From Minisyncoccota bacterium (GTDB lineage: Bacteria; Patescibacteriota; Minisyncoccia; Phycocordibacterales; UBA5272): a stretch of DNA of 64,000 nucleotides. Of the stretch, positions 14,396-24,414 are shown piece after piece; the first letter of the stretch is position 1; each line of letters starts with the position of its first letter. Below the pieces are notes generated by a model, which did not search any database, was not told the origin of the DNA, and was given only the letters and a program-made list of their open reading frames with translations. Made by a program: the position numbers and the translations under genes. Location of the stretch: positions 130,330 through 194,329 of the forward strand of contig JAGOQU010000001.1 in NCBI GenBank assembly GCA_018063165.1, read 5' to 3'.

Positions 14396-15304
14396 TTATT
14401 TTTTTATGTTTGAAGATTGGTTATTTGTGTATTGTTTAAGTATGGCTTGTATTCCAGCTAGATTTTCTTCCCATTCAATTGTTTCATGAGATTGTAATTC
14501 TACCGTAATAGCGGGGATGTTGATTGAAGATAGCCAATCATCTGCAGCTCCTGTTATTTCGTATGCATCAAATGATTGTATTGCTGGATATCCCGATGCT
14601 TGAGAGTAGAGATTCATAAGTGTGAGCGTTTCTTGCATTATTCCATTCTGACATTGTGAAGCAAAGACACTATTAGACTGACTATGCCAAAAAATAACAG
14701 CAGTTGGCTTTTCGGTAAGCATGAAATGTTGTATTGCTTTTGTTTCCGGTTCAGAGAAGGGTGCTGATCCAGCACTTACTATGTTTGATTGCCATGTGCT
14801 TTTTGGTTTCCATTTACAATCAAAATTACGATTTAGGTCTACATTGTTAGCATTAAAACGTCCGGATGTTAAAATTTTTTTATCGTTAGATACATCCTCA
14901 CGAGTAAAACGACCTTCTTTACCTGTAACTTTATACGCACCATCAGGATTAACAGAAGGTACTATACTTATGGTTATGTTTTTTGGAATACTTGTGGGGT
15001 TATTGGTGAGATAATCAATGAAAGTATATGAAAGTAAAATACTATTCCATTCATACCCACCATGAATACCACCAACAAAAACAAGATGAGTAGGTCCATC
15101 ACCGAAAGTATATTTTTCAATAGCGCGTTTTTCTATAGAAGTACCAATAATAGTTTTAATTGGCCAGGTAATTACTTTTTCCTCTTTTTTGTTAGTAATT
15201 TCTATTACTGGTGTTTTTTCGTGAAGTTTTATATATGTTCCTAGACTAAGGATAATAAGAATAAAAACTATTGCAATATTTTTTTTGGATAAAAGTGGTT
15301 GCAT
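14396..15304 (-). CDS. M14-family zinc carboxypeptidase, membrane-anchored, catalytic residues intact
   Basis: GGIHGGYEWN (Zn His/Glu region), VDLNRNF (the Asn-Arg motif), FWHSQSN (second Zn His) and AITVELQ (catalytic Glu). The ATG at 15304-15302 overlaps the upstream paralogue's stop (TAATG). Confidence 0.7.
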   Translation of the reverse strand: MQPLLSKKNIAIVFILIILSLGTYIKLHEKTPVIEITNKKEEKVITWPIKTIIGTSIEKRAIEKYTFGDGPTHLVFVGGIHGGYEWNSILLSYTFIDYLTNNPTSIPKNITISIVPSVNPDGAYKVTGKEGRFTREDVSNDKKILTSGRFNANNVDLNRNFDCKWKPKSTWQSNIVSAGSAPFSEPETKAIQHFMLTEKPTAVIFWHSQSNSVFASQCQNGIMQETLTLMNLYSQASGYPAIQSFDAYEITGAADDWLSSINIPAITVELQSHETIEWEENLAGIQAILKQYTNNQSSNIKK

Positions 15305-16203
15305 TATTTGGTGTAATATGTGAGTAATGCTTTCACTCCTGCTATATTTTTTGCCCAATCTGTGCCGGTATGATTTGTTAATAAAATACTAATAGCTGGA
15401 ATATTATTTTTTGCAAACCAGTTCACCATATCTCCGGTTGTTGCGTAAAAATCAAAACTGTCGTATGCAGGGTATCCGGAGGCTGTAGCAAATACTTTTG
15501 TAATCGCGCTTGTTTCTGTGGATACGCCATTGTTACAACTGGATGCAAAAACACCACCAGCTGCACTGTACCAAACTACTACAGATATAGGTGTATGTGT
15601 TTCTGTATATTCTTTAATAGCTTTACTTTCCGGTTCAGAGAATGTGTTACTTCCAGCGCTTACTGTTTTATTTTGCCATACACCTTCTGATTTCCAGTTA
15701 CAATCAAAATTTCTACTTAGATCAACATTATTTCCATTGAATCTACCAGATGTAACAACACTTTCTAAGGTTGATACATCTGTTTTCAAAAATCTTCCAG
15801 TTGTTCCTACGACTTTATGTAGACCATCAGGATTCATAACAGGGATAATTGTAATCTTTAGAGTGTCTGGAATACTATTTGGGTTTGCTTTAAAATAGTC
15901 CATAAGATCGTATGCAAGTAAAACCGTGTTCCATTCATATCCACCATGAATACCTCCAATCAGTAAAAGTTCATTCGTTCCTTTTCCGTAGTGATATGCA
16001 ACAATCTCATTTCCTTCAACAGATGTACCTATAACTGTTTTGGTTTTATCAATAACAGTTTCTGTGGTAGAAGAGTGATTGTTGGTGTTCTTTATTTCTT
16101 CAGTGTCAGTCGTTAAATCTATTTTCTCTACAGGTCTATCAAGTAACATATATACACCTACACCAATGATCAGTACCAAAATCACAATAAATATATTTTT
16201 CAT
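15304..16203 (-). CDS. M14-like paralogue with substituted catalytic residues (probable pseudo-peptidase)
   Basis: Same fold and the same GGIHGGYEWN segment. However VDLSRNF has Asn replaced by Ser, VWYSAAG has the second Zn His replaced by Tyr, and AISILLT has the catalytic Glu replaced by Leu. Confidence 0.65.
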   Translation of the reverse strand: MKNIFIVILVLIIGVGVYMLLDRPVEKIDLTTDTEEIKNTNNHSSTTETVIDKTKTVIGTSVEGNEIVAYHYGKGTNELLLIGGIHGGYEWNTVLLAYDLMDYFKANPNSIPDTLKITIIPVMNPDGLHKVVGTTGRFLKTDVSTLESVVTSGRFNGNNVDLSRNFDCNWKSEGVWQNKTVSAGSNTFSEPESKAIKEYTETHTPISVVVWYSAAGGVFASSCNNGVSTETSAITKVFATASGYPAYDSFDFYATTGDMVNWFAKNNIPAISILLTNHTGTDWAKNIAGVKALLTYYTK

Positions 16204-16244
16204 ATACGTTAAGTATACACTTCTCACAGCAATTAGATATCTTC

Positions 16245-17177
16245 CTAATCAAATATATGTATGAGATAAGTATCTATTTCTCTTTGGTCAATATCGTAGA
16301 AATTAAGTGTATTCTTGTGAAGATATGTAGCCAATTCTATACCAACAAAACGCCAATGCCACGGTTCATAAACGTAGTATTTATTACCTTTTGGATAAGA
16401 AAGTACAAATCCAAAACGGTAAGCATTATTAAGAAGCCATGTATAAGCGTCTGTTTTATCAAAAGCAGTAGTAAGTTGACCATTAAGTCCTGTTGTTATA
16501 AAGTCCAGTGTTACCCCAAGTTGATGCTCAGAATATCCTTGATCAGCAGAAAAGGTGTTGGAAGTTCCAGCGCCATATTTCACTGTATATGCTGATTTGA
16601 GTGACTTTTGTTCATCAAAGGATCTATATCCAGATTTTACATAAAGAGTAACTCCATCTGCTTTAGCAGAAGTAAATAAATGTAATAAATAAGGCAAAGA
16701 CTTTGTAGAAAAATATTCTTGTCTTGTTGAACTGTAGGTATACTCAGGTGGAATAGTACTTAAATCTAATGGTTTATAGTTTTCGTTTAAAAAGTATACT
16801 TTCGAATATTTTTTTAAAAGCTCAGGGTCTATTTGAGAAAGTTTCTGCAAATCACCGACTGTACCAGATATGGAACCAACTGTTTGTGCTACGCCACCAA
16901 CTTGATTTTTTACTGATTCAATATTTTGTTGTGTGTTGTTAAGAACATCAGAAATTCCTGTTGTCTGTGTATGTAAGTCAGTGATATTTTCTGAGAGTAA
17001 CTTCGTATTTTGCATTAAAGCATGTGAAGTAGAAGACAATTCACTGTTAAGAAAAAGTATATCTTTTTTTAAACTAGATATTTGTATATATCCATACACA
17101 ACAGAACCTCCTAATACAATAAAAATAATTCCAGTTAGAAAAACATATGATGATTTTTTTGGTGTATGTTGTTGCAA
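16245..17177 (-). CDS. M15 (VanY-type) D-alanyl-D-alanine carboxypeptidase family protein
   Basis: SGYRSFDEQ...SEHQLGVTLD (H-x6-D) ...EPWHWRFVG. There is an N-terminal TM plus a coiled-coil linker. Confidence 0.75.
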   Translation of the reverse strand: MQQHTPKKSSYVFLTGIIFIVLGGSVVYGYIQISSLKKDILFLNSELSSTSHALMQNTKLLSENITDLHTQTTGISDVLNNTQQNIESVKNQVGGVAQTVGSISGTVGDLQKLSQIDPELLKKYSKVYFLNENYKPLDLSTIPPEYTYSSTRQEYFSTKSLPYLLHLFTSAKADGVTLYVKSGYRSFDEQKSLKSAYTVKYGAGTSNTFSADQGYSEHQLGVTLDFITTGLNGQLTTAFDKTDAYTWLLNNAYRFGFVLSYPKGNKYYVYEPWHWRFVGIELATYLHKNTLNFYDIDQREIDTYLIHIFD

Positions 17178-17233
17178 GATGTATATAAGTATAGCACTAA
17201 TGAGTTTATGTGTTGTTATCTTGTTGTGTGTTA

Positions 17234-17791
17234 TTAATTTCTTGTTTGCCAGAGTATTAAGTCGAGCATTTTTGTTTTTGATATTTTAGAAGTTGGATAT
17301 TCTTTGGTGAATTGTTCAACCAAATATTTACCAGTTTCTGTTTTAAGAAATAGAGAAAATTCTTTAACCAAGGTTTGATAAATTTTAAGAATTTTTACTT
17401 CTCTCTCTTTGTCATACGAGTAGGGTAGTTTTAATTTAAGATTCTTCAAAACGATACTATCTATAACAGGCATCTTTGGATCTATTGTCGCAACAAGTTT
17501 ACTTGCAAAAGAAGATTCTATTTTTCCTGTCTTCTTAAAAAGTTTCGACAGAGTATTTTTAAAAGTTACAGTATCCTTTTTACTTTTTTGAAGTAGGGAA
17601 TAAAATTCTTTTTGCCACTCTTTGTTTCTGTGGGGTGTAATTTTATAGAAGTAATTAAATTTCTTTTGGAACTCAGCATCTTTGCTTACGTCTTTCTTCA
17701 TTACTTCATTTTGAATCCACAGGTATTGATCAAGACCTTTTTTAACCTTGGGTAGAGCTTCGTGAATTTGTTCCTTTGTAAGCGATATCAT
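17234..17791 (-). CDS. Hypothetical protein
   Basis: 185 aa, K-rich, no recognisable motif. Confidence 0.45.
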   Translation of the reverse strand: MISLTKEQIHEALPKVKKGLDQYLWIQNEVMKKDVSKDAEFQKKFNYFYKITPHRNKEWQKEFYSLLQKSKKDTVTFKNTLSKLFKKTGKIESSFASKLVATIDPKMPVIDSIVLKNLKLKLPYSYDKEREVKILKIYQTLVKEFSLFLKTETGKYLVEQFTKEYPTSKISKTKMLDLILWQTRN

Positions 17792-17884
17792 TGTATATAT
17801 TTTGATTTTAACATTATTTTTTAAATATAGTTATATATTTTCAATGTGTTACTAAATACAATAATCATACTAAACAATAACAAG

Positions 17885-18133
17885 ATGTTATCCATTGAAA
17901 TTGACCTAGACGAGATAGGAATGAAAGAGAAGATAAAAGATGAGGTTAATAGATTCAAACGCTTCCAAATAGGTGTTTTAGGTGTTAAGGATAGTACCAG
18001 TGTAGGTGATGTGGATATACGAAACTATGCGAAGTATATTTTGAGAGATGGGAAAGATATTGAGAAAAGAGAGTTGTTAAGTTGTCTAAGAAGTAGGATT
18101 CTACTAAAGAATAAAGAATTGAGTTTAGTTTAA
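17885..18133 (+). CDS. Hypothetical small protein
   Basis: About 82 aa from the internal Met. No HTH recognised. Confidence 0.3.
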   Translation: MLSIEIDLDEIGMKEKIKDEVNRFKRFQIGVLGVKDSTSVGDVDIRNYAKYILRDGKDIEKRELLSCLRSRILLKNKELSLV

Positions 18134-18155
18134 TTTATTTATCCACAGTTTGTTC

Positions 18156-18187
18156 TATTGTATTAGAACAAATGTTCTAATACAATA
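18156..18187. promoter_or_regulatory. Perfect 15-bp inverted repeat with a 2-bp spacer, upstream of the methyltransferase
   Basis: TATTGTATTAGAACA aa TGTTCTAATACAATA, about 90 bp upstream of the methylase start. No T-run follows it. Confidence 0.5.
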
Positions 18188-18274
18188 ATAATGTAAGCAA
18201 AACAGTGTGTATTTAAGGATAAAACAATACACAATCATTTACTAAAAGAAAATGTTAAACTAAATAGTAATTTT

Positions 18275-19384
18275 ATGACACCTGTTAACAAAAAAACAAA
18301 ACTTCAAACAATAAAAAAGCCACTAGATTTATTTTCTGTACAGAAAAAAGAGGTAAAGAATAAGAATGCACTTAAAATGATTGATCTCTTTGCTGGCATT
18401 GGTGGCATACGACAGGGATTTGAAAGTGTTGGGTGTGAATCTGTTTTTTCATCAGAGTGGGATGCTCCCGCTCAAAAAACTTATGCTGAAAATTTTGGAG
18501 ATATTCCGTATGGTGATATAACTCAAATTGATCCTGAACAAATTCCTTCCTTTGATATTCTGTTGGCTGGATTCCCATGTCAGCCATTTTCTCAGGCAGG
18601 AAAAAAGCTTGGTTTAGCTGATACACGTGGAACACTTTTCTTTGATATAGCTAAGATAGTTAATCATCACAGACCAAGAGTTGTTTTTTTGGAGAATGTG
18701 AAGAGATTTAAAAGTCATGATGGTGGAAAAACATTTGAAACAATTAAATCAATTTTAGAGGATCTTGGTTATCAGATTCATGCTAAAGTTCTGAACGCAA
18801 GGGATTTTGGAGTTCCTCAAAACAGAGAAAGAATTTATATTATTGGATTCCTTGGAGAAGTTGATTTTTCATTTCCAGAACCATTAGGAAAAAAGACTAG
18901 ACTTGGTGATATTTTAGAAAAAAATGTAGATTCTAAGTACACTCTTTCAGACAAGCTTTGGGCAGGACACCAAAGAAGAAAGAAAGAGCACGCCGCTAAG
19001 GGGTATGGTTTTGGGTATTCTATGTTTAACGAGAAGTCAGAATATACTAGTACAATTTCTGCGCGATACTATAAAGATGGTTCGGAAATATTAATTGAGC
19101 AAGAAGGTAAAAACCCAAGAAAGCTCACACCTCGTGAAGCTGCAAGACTGCAAGGTTTTCCTGATACTTATAAACTTCCAGTAAGTGATATGCAAGTATA
19201 TAAACAGTTTGGTAATAGTGTAGCTGTGCCAGTTATTAAAGCACTTGCTAAAGAAATTGATAAAGCTCTTAAAACTTTGAAACAGAAGAAAACTTCAGAT
19301 CTTAGTAATATTGATATTGATAAAATTAAAGCGGACAGTGTTAAAACTGTTATGTTGAATCTTAAAAAAGAAGCTACTGTTTAG
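18275..19384 (+). CDS. DNA (cytosine-5)-methyltransferase
   Basis: Motif I DLFAGIGG, motif IV GFPCQPFSQAG, motif VI FLENVKRF, and the C-terminal QFGNSVAVPV. Confidence 0.95.
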   Translation: MTPVNKKTKLQTIKKPLDLFSVQKKEVKNKNALKMIDLFAGIGGIRQGFESVGCESVFSSEWDAPAQKTYAENFGDIPYGDITQIDPEQIPSFDILLAGFPCQPFSQAGKKLGLADTRGTLFFDIAKIVNHHRPRVVFLENVKRFKSHDGGKTFETIKSILEDLGYQIHAKVLNARDFGVPQNRERIYIIGFLGEVDFSFPEPLGKKTRLGDILEKNVDSKYTLSDKLWAGHQRRKKEHAAKGYGFGYSMFNEKSEYTSTISARYYKDGSEILIEQEGKNPRKLTPREAARLQGFPDTYKLPVSDMQVYKQFGNSVAVPVIKALAKEIDKALKTLKQKKTSDLSNIDIDKIKADSVKTVMLNLKKEATV

Positions 19385-20151
19385 TGGGTATCTGTAATTA
19401 GTGATTCCCAATAGTTATTATTAGCTCTCCATTGTGAATATGGTCTTGGGTTACCTGCATACATTCCACTATCAAAAAAAATTAAACCTTTCTTTACTCC
19501 CGTTATCCAAGTTTTAAAATTTATTGGATCACCAAAGACAATACTTGTGTAAACACCTTCAGAATTTTTGTTGCATTTAAACCAGCCAAGTTTATTAAAC
19601 TTCTTCTCAACTCTTTTCTTCATTAACTCAGCACTCCAGCTTGCAATTATCAATCTATTTTGTTGAAGATCTTTAGGAACTATATTATTTTTATCTAGTC
19701 TTTTGTCTTTTTCAAATGAATATATCGTGAGAATGTTATCGTATTCATCAATTTCAAGTTTCTGTCCAAAATCATTATATGTATTAATCTTAGGACAAGG
19801 TTTTCCAGACCAAGAGTAACGGTTTTCTTTTTCTACGTTAGGTGCTCCAAAAAATTGAAGAAACTGATCTCTCTTTAAAATATTTACTTTCTTTTTGAAC
19901 AATGAGTAGTCAGGCGACCAGTCACCAAAAGTGGTTTTACTTGCTGTGTGGTTTTTCATTTCAAAACCATCTATATCAGGCGCATTATTTCCATTATGTG
20001 CAATTCCCATTTGTGTTTCAAGCCAATGACCATCTTTACCGTCATGTCCAGCATTTGAAGAAGTGGTGTCAGATTTTTTACCTCTAACTTTTTTATCAAA
20101 TAGAGTGATTATCTTTCTTTTTGTTTCCTCACGATTTTGAGTATTTGTCAT
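19381..20151 (-). CDS. Putative type II restriction endonuclease, MutH/Sau3AI-like PD-(D/E)xK fold
   Basis: Convergent with the methylase and overlapping its stop by 4 bp. The segment HWLETQMGIAHNGNNAPDIDGFEMKNHT resembles the MutH catalytic region [26 protein letters not shown] (PD...ExK). Confidence 0.5.
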   Translation of the reverse strand: MTNTQNREETKRKIITLFDKKVRGKKSDTTSSNAGHDGKDGHWLETQMGIAHNGNNAPDIDGFEMKNHTASKTTFGDWSPDYSLFKKKVNILKRDQFLQFFGAPNVEKENRYSWSGKPCPKINTYNDFGQKLEIDEYDNILTIYSFEKDKRLDKNNIVPKDLQQNRLIIASWSAELMKKRVEKKFNKLGWFKCNKNSEGVYTSIVFGDPINFKTWITGVKKGLIFFDSGMYAGNPRPYSQWRANNNYWESLITDTH

Positions 20152-20181
20152 TAAATGAATACTATCAAATAATGAACTTTA

Positions 20182-20685
20182 TTACGAGTTTTCATTATCT
20201 AAAATAGTCTTTGCTTCAGAAACTAGCGACTTAGTCACACTTAAATTCCAAGCTCTCATCGTACTGTGCCATTTTCTAAATTTTAAGAATTGTCCCCAAG
20301 AAAGTTCTAAGATTTTTTTTGGTTTGTAGTTTTTATAGATTTGCACAATAACAACATATTCAAATTTTTTATCAGGGGTAGTATTATCATTTTCTCCACA
20401 TCCATAAAATACACCAGTAGTTGCCCCAGGTTCTGAAATTGTCTTGATACTGTATCTTTCTCCTTTCCTACTTAGTGCGTCCACATTCTGAGTACCTTCT
20501 GGTGCTGCATGTAATTTTGGTAATCCATTTATTGAATTATATGTCTCAACAACGAGAAATTCACCTCGTTCACCAACCATGTTATTAGTTCTAACAAGCT
20601 CACGTTTTTTAAGTTCTTGTTGAATTTCACCATACGCCAACCATAATTCTTCGTTATTTAGTTGATTAAGATCTATTTTGTTCAT
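20182..20685 (-). CDS. Hypothetical protein in the same operon as the nuclease
   Basis: 167 aa, 30 bp upstream of the nuclease gene. It contains ...NVDALSRKGERYSIKT..., which is only weakly nuclease-like. Confidence 0.45.
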   Translation of the reverse strand: MNKIDLNQLNNEELWLAYGEIQQELKKRELVRTNNMVGERGEFLVVETYNSINGLPKLHAAPEGTQNVDALSRKGERYSIKTISEPGATTGVFYGCGENDNTTPDKKFEYVVIVQIYKNYKPKKILELSWGQFLKFRKWHSTMRAWNLSVTKSLVSEAKTILDNENS

Positions 20686-20705
20686 AAATAGCTTTAGTAA
20701 GTTTC

Positions 20706-21596
20706 TTAGATTTTAAATTTTTTAAATGCACACTTAAAGTAGAGGGTTTGTAGAAATGAAAGAATAGGGTAAAAGATCTTATTTGCTTTTAAAATTTTAG
20801 GTAGTATTGTGTTTGCTAAACCTAAAGAAACTATTCCATACATAGTTGTTAGAAAATTATTTGTAAAAATATTAGTTAACCAAGCTGGTTTATAATTAAA
20901 AAAATAAAATAATCCATAAATAAAAAGGTGAAAAGAACAATATAATGCAGCAACCCATGCTTCAACCTCGTATTCAAAGATTTTAATACCTCTACCATTT
21001 GTACTAACAATATCTTTTTTTAATGATTGGTTTAGGTAATATTTTGACTCAGTTAAATTCTCAAAAATATGTATTTTTTTACCGGATATGAAATACTGTA
21101 AACCTGAAAATATATTGAATACGAAAATAATAATTGAAGCAAGAATTCCATGAAACAAAAATAGTTTCGTTCTTATTGATATGCCAGCAATAGGTCTCGT
21201 TGGTTTTAAATGCTGAATATCTACTTGCTTTAGTATGTCTATGCCGGAAATTATTTTATTATTTTTATCAAAAAAATTGTTTATTTTTATATTATAAAAA
21301 TAATCTTTTTCAGAAATTAACTCTATAGGCCAATCTCTTCCTCTTTTAAAATTTGAAGATGAAATTGTTATACCATTTTCAGTTTCTTTACCATAACTAA
21401 CTGATACAACAACAGGTTTCAGTATATACTCTTTCTCTATGTCTTCATTTCTAATGTACACCCTAAAAAGAGATTTAAACCCCTTAGTTTCTCTTTCTTT
21501 ATAAACAGAAAAGCCAACTTGAGTATCCTGTAAATCAACCGGTTCTAAAAAACCATTTTGAGGTAAATTAAATTTTAATTTAAATTCATTTTTCAC
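20706..21596 (-). CDS. Membrane protein with an N-terminal cytoplasmic domain of about 150 aa followed by 4 TM helices
   Basis: 296-aa ORF, first gene after tRNA-Gln and 20 bp upstream of the 167-aa gene. No domain recognised. Confidence 0.5.
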   Translation of the reverse strand: MKNEFKLKFNLPQNGFLEPVDLQDTQVGFSVYKERETKGFKSLFRVYIRNEDIEKEYILKPVVVSVSYGKETENGITISSSNFKRGRDWPIELISEKDYFYNIKINNFFDKNNKIISGIDILKQVDIQHLKPTRPIAGISIRTKLFLFHGILASIIIFVFNIFSGLQYFISGKKIHIFENLTESKYYLNQSLKKDIVSTNGRGIKIFEYEVEAWVAALYCSFHLFIYGLFYFFNYKPAWLTNIFTNNFLTTMYGIVSLGLANTILPKILKANKIFYPILSFLQTLYFKCAFKKFKI

Positions 21597-21640
21597 TTTT
21601 TAAGTTTTAAGCTCTTCGGGCACTTGAATCTGATTCAACT

Positions 21641-21714
21641 TGGCTGGGGTACAAGGACTCGAACCTCGATACTCAGGACCAAAACCTGATGTCCTACCAT
21701 TAGACGATACCCCA
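21641..21714 (-). tRNA. tRNA-Gln (anticodon UUG)
   Basis: My own fold. Acceptor TGGGGTA/TACCCCA with U1-A72 (typical of bacterial tRNA-Gln). D-stem GTCT/GGAC. Anticodon stem TCAGG/CCTGA with loop TTTTGGT. T-arm CGAGG-TTCGAGT-CCTTG, discriminator G, then CCA. Confidence 0.85.
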
Positions 21715-23829: not shown

Positions 23830-24414
23830 ATGTCAGCACATGGAGCAGGTATTCCGAAAACAGCGAATAAGTTTTTGATTTTTTTGGCGGGTATTATTAT
23901 CTCTGCATTTGTGTATCATGTTCAAAATTCTGGGCTTGTTGAACTTGGATTACCAAACACAGTACCAAATATGGTTGGGGTGTATTATAAGGTTACAAAA
24001 GTTACAGATGGGGACACTATACATATAGAAATGGATGGTCGTGACGAGGTGGTAAGATTTATTGGTATCAATACACCAGAAACAGTTGACCCACGACGTG
24101 AAGTAGAGTGTTTTGGTAAAGAGGCTAGTTCTCGTATGAAAGAGCTCGCTAGTGGCAAAATTGTACGTCTAGAGTATGACGAATCTCAGAGTACAAGAGA
24201 TACATATAATAGAATACTCGCATATGTATATCTTGAAGATAATCAAATGCTTAATCGTAAAATGATAGCAGAAGGATACGCTTATGAGTATACGTATTTA
24301 ACACCATATAAATATCAAAAAGAATTTAGAGATTTGCAGGCGTTTGCAAGAAATAGTGAAAGAGGTTTGTGGTCACCAGAGAGTTGTAATGGTAGTAAAA
24401 AAATAAAACGATAA
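23830..24414 (+). CDS. Thermonuclease (staphylococcal nuclease-like), membrane-anchored
   Basis: TM anchor, then the SNase core VTDGDTIHIEMDGRDEVVRFIGINTPETVDPRREVECFGKEAS...YNRILAYVYLEDNQMLNRKMIAEGYA. Confidence 0.85.
   Translation: MSAHGAGIPKTANKFLIFLAGIIISAFVYHVQNSGLVELGLPNTVPNMVGVYYKVTKVTDGDTIHIEMDGRDEVVRFIGINTPETVDPRREVECFGKEASSRMKELASGKIVRLEYDESQSTRDTYNRILAYVYLEDNQMLNRKMIAEGYAYEYTYLTPYKYQKEFRDLQAFARNSERGLWSPESCNGSKKIKR

What the first reader, a model, noticed from the sequence alone, without database searches (positions are those of the whole stretch)
17234..21714. tRNA-Gln-adjacent restriction-modification island: m5C methylase convergent with a MutH/Sau3AI-like endonuclease
Seen directly: a complete cytosine-5 methyltransferase (18275-19384) whose stop overlaps by 4 bp the stop of a convergent 256-aa ORF. 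That ORF carries HNGNNAPDIDGFEMK, which closely resembles the MutH catalytic segment (SKPEQDFAALGVELK; D...ExK). Sau3AI-type systems, which recognise GATC, are the known pairing of a MutH-fold nuclease with an m5C methylase. GATC specificity here is an inference only.

The island abuts a tRNA-Gln gene, a classic integration hotspot, yet no integrase or transposase is present.
Basis: partly seen in the sequence, partly recalled or inferred. Interest (0 to 1): 0.55.

Follow-up and report, generated by a model that had tools for sequence, protein, structure and literature searches.

The report
CCNGG restriction-modification islet beside tRNA-Gln
This is an ordinary small bacterial defence island: a ScrFI/LlaMI-type restriction enzyme with its cytosine methylase (predicted target CCNGG, not GATC), an overlooked BisI-like nuclease gene, and the stump of the recombinase that probably once moved it.

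Summary
A complete m5C methyltransferase (18275-19384, +) converges on a 256-aa nuclease gene (19381-20151, -) with a 4-nt overlap, next to tRNA-Gln (21641-21714, -).

- The 167-aa gene just upstream of the nuclease (20182-20685, -) is a divergent BisI-family nuclease. Characterised members of that family cut only m5C-modified DNA.
- The 95-aa ORF upstream of the methylase is the C-terminal stump of a large serine recombinase. That recombinase is intact in a related cassette that also sits beside tRNA-Gln.

Verdict: new members of known kinds, with low-to-moderate interest. The most interesting lead is that in Patescibacteria this BisI-like clade sits within about 3 kb of m5C methylases of different specificities in 19 of 35 loci.

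The parts
21641..21714 (-). tRNA-Gln (anticodon UUG). Its 3' end faces the island, and it marks a recurrent insertion hotspot.
   Evidence: ARAGORN. The same tRNA precedes the related cassette in L042 (96% nt identity). It also lies upstream of the BisI-like gene in 8 of 35 related genome loci. No repeat of its 3' end is found in the window.
20706..21596 (-). 296-aa ORF of unknown function with two strongly hydrophobic stretches. It is the first gene after the tRNA.
   Evidence: ORF list. No significant match in Pfam, NCBIfam, PADLOC or PHROGs. Kyte-Doolittle peaks at residues 139-171 and 215-233. This segment is absent from L042 and L038.
20182..20685 (-). 167-aa divergent BisI-family nuclease (PD-(Q)xK / Mrr-like). 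Predicted to be m5C-dependent, with unknown specificity. It ends 30 nt upstream of the restriction gene on the same strand.
   Evidence: PADLOC 'Type II methyl-directed restriction enzyme' PDLC03205, E 2.6e-56. A 64-sequence profile hits Eco15I (E 1.5e-14) and NhoI (E 7.4e-9) full-length. E42, D69, K81 and E109 are conserved. S79 replaces the family's Q, and T142-M143 replace the (H/R)(V/I/T/M) methyl-pocket motif (PMC11347163).
19381..20151 (-). 256-aa LlaMI/ScrFI-family Type II restriction endonuclease. Predicted to cut CC^NGG, probably as a monomer with a single active site (E45, D59, E64, K66).
18275..19384 (+). 369-aa C5 cytosine DNA methyltransferase with a Dcm/CCNGG-type target-recognition domain. 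It is the cognate partner of the restriction enzyme.
   Evidence: PF00145 E 3.5e-108. The target-recognition domain alone hits only Dcm-like 3lx6/3me5, E 2e-13. It is 52% identical to the pP62BP1 CCNGG methylase, with a near-identical target-recognition domain. Motif: GYGF-x13-TI-x3-YYK against the published G(K/N)GFx13T(I/L)x3YYK (PMC3346939).
18156..18187 (.). Perfect 14-bp inverted repeat (TATTGTATTAGAAC aaat GTTCTAATACAATA) between the recombinase stump and the methylase start. Its role is unknown; it could be an operator, a terminator or a recombination site.
   Evidence: Sequence. Fold dG -16.6 kcal/mol, z -5.6, and none of 200 shuffles folds as well. Conserved at 100% in L038 and 94% in L042.
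17846..18133 (+). Stump of a large serine recombinase gene. Only the last ~80 codons remain (homology runs over 17900-18130).
   Evidence: tblastn against the L022 recombinase: residues 365-444 of 449, 45% identity, E 8e-16. The full gene (Resolvase + Recombinase + Zn_ribbon_recom) sits at the same position and orientation in L042, L047 and L051. Nucleotide homology with L042 stops at window position 17864.
17234..17791 (-). 185-aa ORF of unknown function, the last gene of the variable segment before the conserved VanY gene (16245-17177).
   Evidence: No family match. The only weak PADLOC hit is probably spurious. All 46 homologues are 'hypothetical'. One homologue lies in the L014 island and one on a Pseudomonas putida plasmid.

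Best explanation
This is a ~4.5-kb defence islet (about 17178-21640) inserted between tRNA-Gln and a conserved VanY/M14-peptidase cluster in a Patescibacteria (Paceibacteria) genome.

Its core is a ScrFI/LlaMI-type Type II restriction-modification pair.
- The methylase is predicted to put 5-methyl on a cytosine of CCNGG in host DNA.
- The nuclease has a BcnI/MvaI-like two-lobed fold with one active site (E45, D59, E64, K66). It is predicted to cut unmethylated CCNGG in incoming DNA, one strand at a time.
- The genes lie tail to tail and share 4 nt, exactly as in the experimentally characterised CCNGG systems of plasmid pP62BP1.

Immediately upstream of the nuclease gene, and probably co-transcribed, is a divergent BisI-family nuclease. 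By family precedent it would cut DNA carrying foreign patterns of 5-methylcytosine, such as fully m5C-substituted phage DNA. That would add a second defence layer that spares the host's own CCNGG methylation.

The restriction-modification cassette was brought in by a large serine recombinase encoded directly upstream of the methylase. In this genome that gene has been deleted down to its last ~80 codons, so the islet is now fixed.

Shown: gene identities, folds, conserved catalytic residues, homology to characterised enzymes, comparative gene order, and the recombinase stump.

Inferred: the exact recognition sequence, monomeric cleavage, methyl-dependence of the BisI-like protein, co-transcription, and the mobility mechanism.
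For: Nuclease:
- RE_LlaMI E 4.8e-63. NCBI itself names the identical protein 'LlaMI family restriction endonuclease'.
- E45-X13-D59-X4-E64-X-K66 has the same spacing as MvaI E36, D50, E55, K57 (PMC1874612). These residues are invariant in 44 homologues.
- It is 55% identical over 100% of its length to the pP62BP1 REase. Six of the seven residues that paper highlights are kept: D59, E64, K66, K184, D227, R242.
- The pP62BP1 REases cut CCNGG and their methylases protect CCNGG (PMC10779009).

Methylase:
- The motifs are intact.
- The target-recognition domain alone hits only a Dcm-like methylase.
- It is 52% identical to the pP62BP1 methylase, with a near-identical target-recognition domain.
- The spacing GF-x13-TI-x3-YYK is as in CCNGG methylases, whereas the Dcm-like chain has two extra residues (PMC3346939).
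- The same 4-nt tail-to-tail overlap occurs in pP62BP1.

BisI-like gene:
- BisI coexists with a C(m5C)WGG methylase and does not cut Dcm-methylated DNA (PMC4926085, PMC8281217).

Mobility:
- Window 18044-20190 is 91.7% nt identical to L038, while the flanking VanY and M14 genes are only 67-70% identical.
- L042 has tRNA-Gln, RE, MT and an intact serine recombinase, and is 85% nt identical to window 17864-20192.
- The recombinase stump is shown.
Against: - No enzyme here has been assayed. At 52-55% identity to characterised enzymes, the central base (N, W or S) could differ.
- The methylase motif has Y where CCNGG methylases have K or N. One backbone-contact lysine of the pP62BP1 REase (K101) is A103 here.
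- CCNGG is only mildly depleted in the window (30 sites against 39.4 +/- 6.3), so genome composition gives no independent support.
- The BisI-like clade lacks the family's Q in QxK and the H/R of the methyl pocket. It matches characterised members only at profile level, and its AF2 model was too poor to use (pLDDT 52). Methyl-dependence is therefore an extrapolation.
- No att-type repeat, no deviation in composition (island GC 0.304, window 0.325) and no significant promoter or terminator signal were found.
Confidence: 0.8

Rival explanations
1. One reading: a Sau3AI-type system in which a MutH-fold nuclease cuts GATC and the m5C methylase protects GATC.
Against: - The sequence family is RE_LlaMI, and no MutH family was reported down to E = 1.
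- The closest characterised homologue cuts CCNGG (PMC10779009).
- The methylase's target-recognition domain is Dcm/CCNGG-type.
- GATC observed/expected is 0.86, within the range of unrelated tetramers.
Confidence: 0.02
2. Same family and mechanism, but with a narrower central base: CCWGG (as for MvaI, EcoRII and Dcm) or CCSGG (as for BcnI) instead of CCNGG.
For: - MvaI_BcnI is the second Pfam hit.
- The target-recognition domain also resembles the CCWGG methylase Dcm.
- The motif deviates at one position (Y for K/N).
- CCSGG is the rarer subset in the window (3 sites against 5-9 expected).
Against: - The RE_LlaMI score (214 bits) far exceeds MvaI_BcnI (64 bits).
- Identity is 55% to an enzyme shown to cut CCNGG, against about 15% to MvaI and BcnI.
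- The x13 spacing in the target-recognition domain matches CCNGG methylases, not the Dcm-like chain (PMC3346939).
Confidence: 0.12
3. The 167-aa BisI-like protein is not a methyl-dependent defence nuclease. It is instead a functional partner of m5C methylases, for example a conventional nuclease blocked by methylation or a Vsr-like nickase acting on T:G deamination products.
For: - In 19 of 35 genome loci, an m5C methylase lies within about 3 kb of this gene.
- The gene is usually co-directional with the methylase, and the methylases have different specificities (HinP1I-, HpaII-, Eco47II-, LlaMI-type partners).
- In L027 and L033 the order is methylase, BisI-like, Vsr, with no recognised restriction gene between them.
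- The clade lacks the Q and the H/R that are typical of characterised BisI enzymes.
- BisI-family enzymes tolerate T in place of 5mC, including T:G (PMC11347163), and two homologues cut unmodified DNA (PMC4926085).
Against: - A genuine Vsr gene sits beside it in 7 loci, so it is not a simple Vsr substitute.
- Here and in at least 8 other loci, a complete restriction-modification pair with its own nuclease is already present.
- The protein is 60-90% identical across loci whose methylases differ. It therefore cannot be matched to each methylase's site.
- 14 of the 35 loci have no trace of an m5C system nearby, and L004 keeps only a restriction-gene remnant.
Confidence: 0.2
4. The islet is a decaying, non-functional remnant.
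For: The recombinase is reduced to a stump. L004 shows a related locus in which only 65 codons of the restriction gene remain next to the BisI-like gene.
Against: The methylase, nuclease and BisI-like ORFs are all full length, with every catalytic residue intact. The identical proteins occur in independent assemblies.
Confidence: 0.07

Closest known systems
R-M1/R-M2 of Psychrobacter plasmid pP62BP1 (NC_019274), and through them ScrFI/LlaMI of Lactococcus lactis
   Same: - LlaMI-family nuclease (55% identity) paired with a C5 methylase (52% identity).
- Convergent genes sharing 4 nt at their stops.
- PD-X4-ExK active site with the unusually short spacer.
- CCNGG specificity was shown experimentally for the pP62BP1 enzymes (PMC3346939, PMC10779009).
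   Different: - The methylase here is 369 aa and lacks the ~55-aa N-terminal HTH_XRE regulatory domain of the pP62BP1 and ScrFI methylases.
- There is no second methylase as in ScrFI.
- There are no CCNGG sites inside the cassette, whereas pP62BP1 has three with a proposed regulatory role.
- The system is chromosomal, in a Patescibacteria genome, and is flanked by a serine-recombinase stump and a BisI-like gene.
MvaI / BcnI (and, more distantly, MutH and Sau3AI)
   Same: Two-lobed fold with a single active site. The E-X13-D-X4-E-X-K spacing is identical to MvaI. The targets are related (CCWGG and CCSGG) (PMC1874612).
BisI family of m5C-dependent Type IIM endonucleases (BisI, NhoI, Eco15I)
   Same: Small size (167 aa, within the family's 150-190 aa). 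Full-length profile match to Eco15I and NhoI. The core glutamate, PD-aspartate, catalytic lysine and Asn42 equivalent (N35) are conserved. BisI itself also sits next to a C5 methylase gene (PMC4926085, PMC11347163).
   Different: S-I-K in place of Q-x-K. T-M in place of the (H/R)(V/I/T/M) methyl pocket. The DNA-contact loop is not alignable. The published view is that most BisI homologues have no companion C5 methylase, yet this clade has one within about 3 kb in 19 of 35 loci.
Mixed defence islands that combine a methylating system with a modification-dependent nuclease, such as BREX plus the Type IV enzyme BrxU on pEFER (own knowledge)
   Same: The same logic of two complementary layers: one attacks unmodified DNA and the other attacks modified DNA.
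   Different: The components are different, and nothing here has been tested functionally.

Membership tests
LlaMI/ScrFI family Type II restriction endonuclease | Sequence match to the family profile above the curated threshold | tested here: met
   PF09562 at 213.6 bits against a cut-off of 25, covering profile positions 2-265 of 266.
LlaMI/ScrFI family Type II restriction endonuclease | PD-X4-(D/E)XK catalytic motif with the short 4-residue spacer, plus an upstream glutamate | tested here: met
   P58-D59-IDGF-E64-M65-K66 and E45. D59, E64, K66 and E45 are invariant and P58 nearly invariant in 44 homologues. The spacing equals that of MvaI and pP62BP1 (PMC1874612, PMC3346939).
LlaMI/ScrFI family Type II restriction endonuclease | Residues proposed to read C and G of the site (pP62BP1 D226, R241) | tested here: met
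   They align with D227 and R242, both invariant. The backbone lysine K101 is A103 here.
LlaMI/ScrFI family Type II restriction endonuclease | Adjacent cognate C5 methylase with a CCNGG-type target-recognition domain | tested here: met
   The methylase is convergent with a 4-nt overlap. Its target-recognition domain is of the Dcm/CCNGG type. The RE-MT pairing is conserved in most of the 80 related loci whose contigs extend far enough.
LlaMI/ScrFI family Type II restriction endonuclease | Cleavage at CC^NGG, blocked by cognate methylation | not testable with these tools
   Needs enzyme assays. Site depletion in 64 kb is weak (30 against 39.4 +/- 6.3).
C5 cytosine DNA methyltransferase, CCNGG subgroup | Conserved catalytic motifs (FxGxG, PCQ, ENV, QxRxR, GN) | tested here: met
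   DLFAGIGG, GFPCQPFS, ENV, QNRER and GNSV are visible in the translation. The match to PF00145 is full length.
C5 cytosine DNA methyltransferase, CCNGG subgroup | Target-recognition-domain string G(K/N)GFx13T(I/L)x3YYK (PMC3346939) | tested here: inconclusive
   The window has G-Y-G-F-x13-T-I-x3-Y-Y-K. The spacing and all other positions fit, but Y replaces K/N. The 72%-identical methylase in L014 has GNGF.
   [not shown]
   The target-recognition domain matches Dcm-like and CCNGG methylases.
BisI family (Type IIM, m5C-dependent) | Homology to characterised members over the whole nuclease domain | tested here: met
   Profile A4 against the PDB gives Eco15I E 1.5e-14 and NhoI E 7.4e-9, both near full length. 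All 64 clade members hit two or more PADLOC mREase_II models.
BisI family (Type IIM, m5C-dependent) | PD...QxK (Mrr-like) catalytic site with a helix glutamate | tested here: inconclusive
   E42, D69 and K81 are conserved, but the Q position is S79 (S, A or T in 59 of 64 clade members, Q in 1). The Q72A mutant of Pam7902I keeps partial activity (PMC8281217).
BisI family (Type IIM, m5C-dependent) | (H/R)(V/I/T/M) di-residue pocket for the internal methyl group | tested here: not met
   The aligned residues are T142-M143. Across the clade the first position is T in 26, R in 17 and H in 2 of 64 sequences (PMC11347163).
BisI family (Type IIM, m5C-dependent) | Cleavage only of m5C- or hm5C-containing sites | not testable with these tools
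   Needs assays on modified substrates.
tRNA-associated genomic island | Lies at the 3' side of a tRNA gene, and its content varies among relatives | tested here: met
   L042 has tRNA-Gln plus the cassette but lacks the 296-aa and BisI-like genes. L038 has the cassette with other neighbours.
tRNA-associated genomic island | Functional integrase and flanking direct repeats (att sites) | tested here: not met
   Only an 80-codon recombinase stump is present. No repeat of the tRNA 3' end or its trailer is found.
tRNA-associated genomic island | Base composition deviates from the host | tested here: not met
   Island GC is 0.304, the cassette 0.323 and the window 0.325.

The most novel reading that the evidence does not exclude
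The 167-aa protein may represent a distinct Patescibacteria-centred clade of BisI-like nucleases (SxK instead of QxK, with an altered methyl pocket). On this reading the clade is a regular third or fourth component of m5C restriction-modification operons (methylase, nuclease, BisI-like, sometimes Vsr), whatever the methylase's target. These operons would often be parked at tRNA-Gln and moved by large serine recombinases. Its role would then be tied to cytosine methylation itself, rather than being an orphan anti-phage enzyme as currently described. Possible roles include policing foreign m5C patterns or rival methylases, or acting on hemimethylated or deaminated sites.
Probability: 0.25. Interest if true: 0.55.

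Novelty: new member of a known kind. Interest (0 to 1): 0.3.

Why it matters
For annotation, the pair should be labelled as a ScrFI/LlaMI-type system with predicted CCNGG specificity. The neighbouring 'hypothetical protein' should be labelled as a BisI-like nuclease.

For anyone trying to manipulate or assemble Patescibacteria DNA, a CCNGG barrier together with a possible m5C-dependent barrier is practical information.

The wider point is modest but testable. In these tiny genomes, a conserved BisI-like gene travels with m5C systems of many specificities. This differs from the published picture of BisI enzymes as orphans, and it could show how methylating and methyl-dependent defences are kept compatible.

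Tried and rejected
- Single-sequence PDB searches. The nuclease found nothing and the BisI-like protein only a marginal hit (E 0.005). Profiles and a structure model were needed.
- AF2 model of the BisI-like protein from 27 close homologues. It was too poor (pLDDT 52), so no fold search was run on it.
- Oligonucleotide statistics. CCNGG, CCWGG, CCSGG and GATC all lie within about 0.6-0.9 of expectation in 64 kb. They discriminate nothing.
- Search for att-like repeats of the tRNA 3' end or its trailer, and a general repeat scan. Nothing beyond chance was found.
- Promoter and terminator scan. Counts equal those of shuffled sequence.
- The short palindromes just after tRNA-Gln in several loci looked like a covarying hairpin. 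Their folding energies are not better than shuffles, so the idea was dropped.
- The idea that the BisI-like gene always accompanies LlaMI-type systems (suggested by matching contig lengths). Only 1 of 80 metagenome loci shows it, so it was rejected.
- The L014 nuclease as an Ecl18kI/EcoRII-type CCNGG enzyme. It has only a sub-threshold EcoRII-C hit (E 3.4e-4) and no PDB hit, so it was not used as evidence.
- The 185-aa ORF. No family, and all homologues are 'hypothetical'.

Full report
**What is there.** Region 17234-21714 contains six ORFs and one tRNA.
- A 185-aa ORF at 17234-17791 (-).
- A 95-aa ORF at 17846-18133 (+).
- A 369-aa C5 cytosine methyltransferase at 18275-19384 (+).
- A 256-aa ORF at 19381-20151 (-).
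- A 167-aa ORF at 20182-20685 (-).
- A 296-aa ORF at 20706-21596 (-).
- tRNA-Gln(UUG) at 21641-21714 (-).

The methylase stop (TAG, 19382-19384) and the nuclease stop (TAA, complement of 19381-19383) interlock, so the ORFs share 4 nt. The identical proteins occur in two other assemblies, and NCBI attributes them to a 'Candidatus Pacebacteria' metagenome-assembled genome.

**The nuclease.**
- It matches Pfam RE_LlaMI (E 4.8e-63, nearly the whole profile) and, more weakly, MvaI_BcnI (E 3.7e-17). PADLOC calls it a Type II restriction enzyme.
- A confident AlphaFold model (pLDDT 90.5) finds only MvaI and BcnI among solved structures by Foldseek (E 1e-8 to 2e-6).
The active site is E45, D59, E64 and K66. 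This is the same E-X13-D-X4-E-X-K spacing as MvaI's Glu36, Asp50, Glu55 and Lys57 (PMC1874612), and it is invariant in 44 homologues.
- The enzyme's own family, however, is LlaMI/ScrFI. Its closest annotated relative in the plasmid collection is the LlaMI-family nuclease of Psychrobacter plasmid pP62BP1 (55% identity over the full length). That enzyme was shown to cut CCNGG (PMC10779009).
- Six of the seven residues highlighted for the pP62BP1 enzyme are conserved here: D59, E64, K66, K184, D227 and R242. K101 is A103 (PMC3346939).

**The methylase.**
- It has all the catalytic motifs. Over its whole length it resembles M.HhaI most, through the conserved core.
- Its target-recognition domain (residues 194-282), searched alone, matches only the Dcm-like methylase 3lx6/3me5 (E 2e-13), through '...GFGY...SARYYKDGxEILI'.
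- It is 52% identical to the pP62BP1 methylase, with an almost identical target-recognition domain. That methylase was shown to protect CCNGG (PMC10779009).
- The published CCNGG signature G(K/N)GFx13T(I/L)x3YYK (PMC3346939) reads GYGF-x13-TI-SAR-YYK here, with one deviation. The x13 spacing distinguishes it from the Dcm-like chain, which has two more residues.
- The 4-nt tail-to-tail overlap is also identical to pP62BP1.
- Unlike the ScrFI and pP62BP1 methylases, this one has only a 32-residue N-terminal extension and no HTH domain.

GATC is thus unsupported, and CCNGG is the best prediction. Oligonucleotide counts in 64 kb are uninformative (CCNGG 30 against 39.4 +/- 6.3; GATC 137 against about 160).

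**The overlooked 167-aa gene.**
- It ends 30 nt upstream of the nuclease start, on the same strand. PADLOC assigns it to 'Type II methyl-directed restriction enzyme' models (best E 2.6e-56).
- A profile of 27 close homologues hits Eco15I weakly.
- A profile of 64 diverse relatives, collected from the exhaustive HMMER search (443 clusters), hits Eco15I (E 1.5e-14) and NhoI (E 7.4e-9) over the whole domain. These are the two structurally solved BisI-family enzymes (PMC11347163).
- The helix glutamate (E42), the PD-aspartate (D69), the catalytic lysine (K81), the acidic residue after the fourth strand (E109) and the Asn42 equivalent (N35) are conserved.
- The clade has S, A or T where the family has the Q of QxK. 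It has T-M where NhoI and Eco15I have the His-Val methyl pocket.
- It is therefore a divergent BisI-like nuclease. Methyl-dependence is a family-level inference. BisI itself coexists with a C(m5C)WGG methylase and does not cut Dcm-methylated DNA (PMC4926085, PMC8281217), so it is compatible with a CCNGG methylase.

**Gene neighbourhoods.** A scan of species-representative genomes found 35 loci with this BisI-like gene, nearly all in Patescibacteria.
- An m5C methylase lies within about 3 kb in 19 of them.
- The protein is 60-90% identical across loci whose methylases differ. Its function therefore cannot depend on each methylase's site.
- The presence of true Vsr in 7 loci argues against a simple Vsr-substitute role.
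- Conversely, only 1 of 80 LlaMI-type loci from metagenomes has the BisI-like gene beside the nuclease. The combination seen in this window is therefore occasional.
- The published statement is that most BisI homologues lack a nearby C5 methylase (PMC4926085). This clade behaves differently.

**Mobility.**
- The 95-aa ORF upstream of the methylase is the tail of a large serine recombinase (45% identity to residues 365-444 of a 449-aa Resolvase/Recombinase/Zn-ribbon protein in L022, E 8e-16).
- In L042 the order is tRNA-Gln (96% nt identical to the window's), nuclease, methylase, then an intact 426-aa serine recombinase in exactly the position and orientation of the stump. Nucleotide identity to window 17864-20192 is 85% and stops inside the recombinase gene.
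- L047 and L051 carry the same three-gene unit. L014 and L006 have serine recombinases next to their BisI-like genes.
- In L038, a relative with the same VanY/M14 flank, window 18044-20190 is 91.7% nt identical while the flanking core genes are only 67-70% identical. The neighbouring genes also differ.
- tRNA-Gln lies upstream of the BisI-like gene, on the same strand, in 8 of 35 loci.

Together these results show that the restriction-modification cassette has moved or been exchanged recently. The tRNA-Gln flank appears to be a recurrent insertion point for variable genes. The recombinase here is dead. No att-type repeat and no compositional signal remain.

**Unexplained element.** A perfect 14-bp inverted repeat with a 4-nt loop (18156-18187) lies between the recombinase stump and the methylase. 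It folds far better than shuffles (z -5.6) and is conserved in L038 and L042. It could be an operator, a terminator or a recombination site.

**Verdict.** This is a new instance of known kinds: a ScrFI/LlaMI-type system with predicted CCNGG specificity, together with a BisI-like nuclease, in a fixed serine-recombinase islet at tRNA-Gln. The GATC/Sau3AI assignment and 'no integrase' are wrong or incomplete. Interest is low to moderate. The lead worth following is the clade-wide linkage of the BisI-like gene to m5C systems.

Noticed in passing
window 18156-18187: Perfect 14-bp inverted repeat with a 4-nt loop, 88 nt upstream of the methylase start. Fold dG -16.6 kcal/mol, z -5.6. Conserved in L038 (100%) and L042 (94%). 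Function unknown.
   Followed up: partly
[not shown]
   Followed up: partly
L003, L004, L005, L006, L010, L013, L015, L026; L042: tRNA-Gln sits upstream of the BisI-like gene on the same strand in 8 of 35 loci; in L004 the gap is only 26 nt. In L042 it precedes the restriction-modification cassette. This points to a lineage-wide hotspot or conserved gene order.
   Followed up: partly
L005 5174-5268: A ~35-nt stretch starting at the tRNA-Gln 3' end (CAAGTTGAGCGCGCTCA.G.CGCGTCAAAA) is repeated 60 nt downstream. It may be an att-like scar.
   Followed up: no
L042 4147-6309: An OLD-family nuclease gene (AAA_15 + OLD-like TOPRIM) lies next to the intact recombinase, so that islet carries a further defence-type gene.
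   Followed up: no
L038 3009-9201: The relative with the 92%-identical cassette has a Type III-like system (N6_N4 methylase, DUF3800, ResIII helicase) upstream of it in place of the BisI-like gene. It also has seven extra small genes between the methylase and VanY.
   Followed up: no
L004 6543-6737: Only the first 65 codons of a LlaMI-type restriction gene remain next to the BisI-like gene, and no methylase is present. This looks like a decayed version of the arrangement in the window.
   Followed up: no
window 14396-17177: Two tandem M14 carboxypeptidase-like genes (identified as Peptidase_M14 from the gene calls of the identical locus L001) and a VanY-type D-Ala-D-Ala carboxypeptidase form the conserved flank. 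They are 67-70% nt identical to L038.
   Followed up: no
window 23830-24414: 194-aa staphylococcal-nuclease (SNase) homologue with an N-terminal hydrophobic segment, about 2 kb beyond the tRNA (Pfam E 2.7e-24).
   Followed up: no
L030, L035: These two loci (Absconditabacterales and Peribacteria bins) give continuous genes only if TGA is read as a sense codon (code 25). There the BisI-like gene sits among housekeeping genes (LeuRS, malic enzyme, GlmS) with no methylase nearby.
   Followed up: partly
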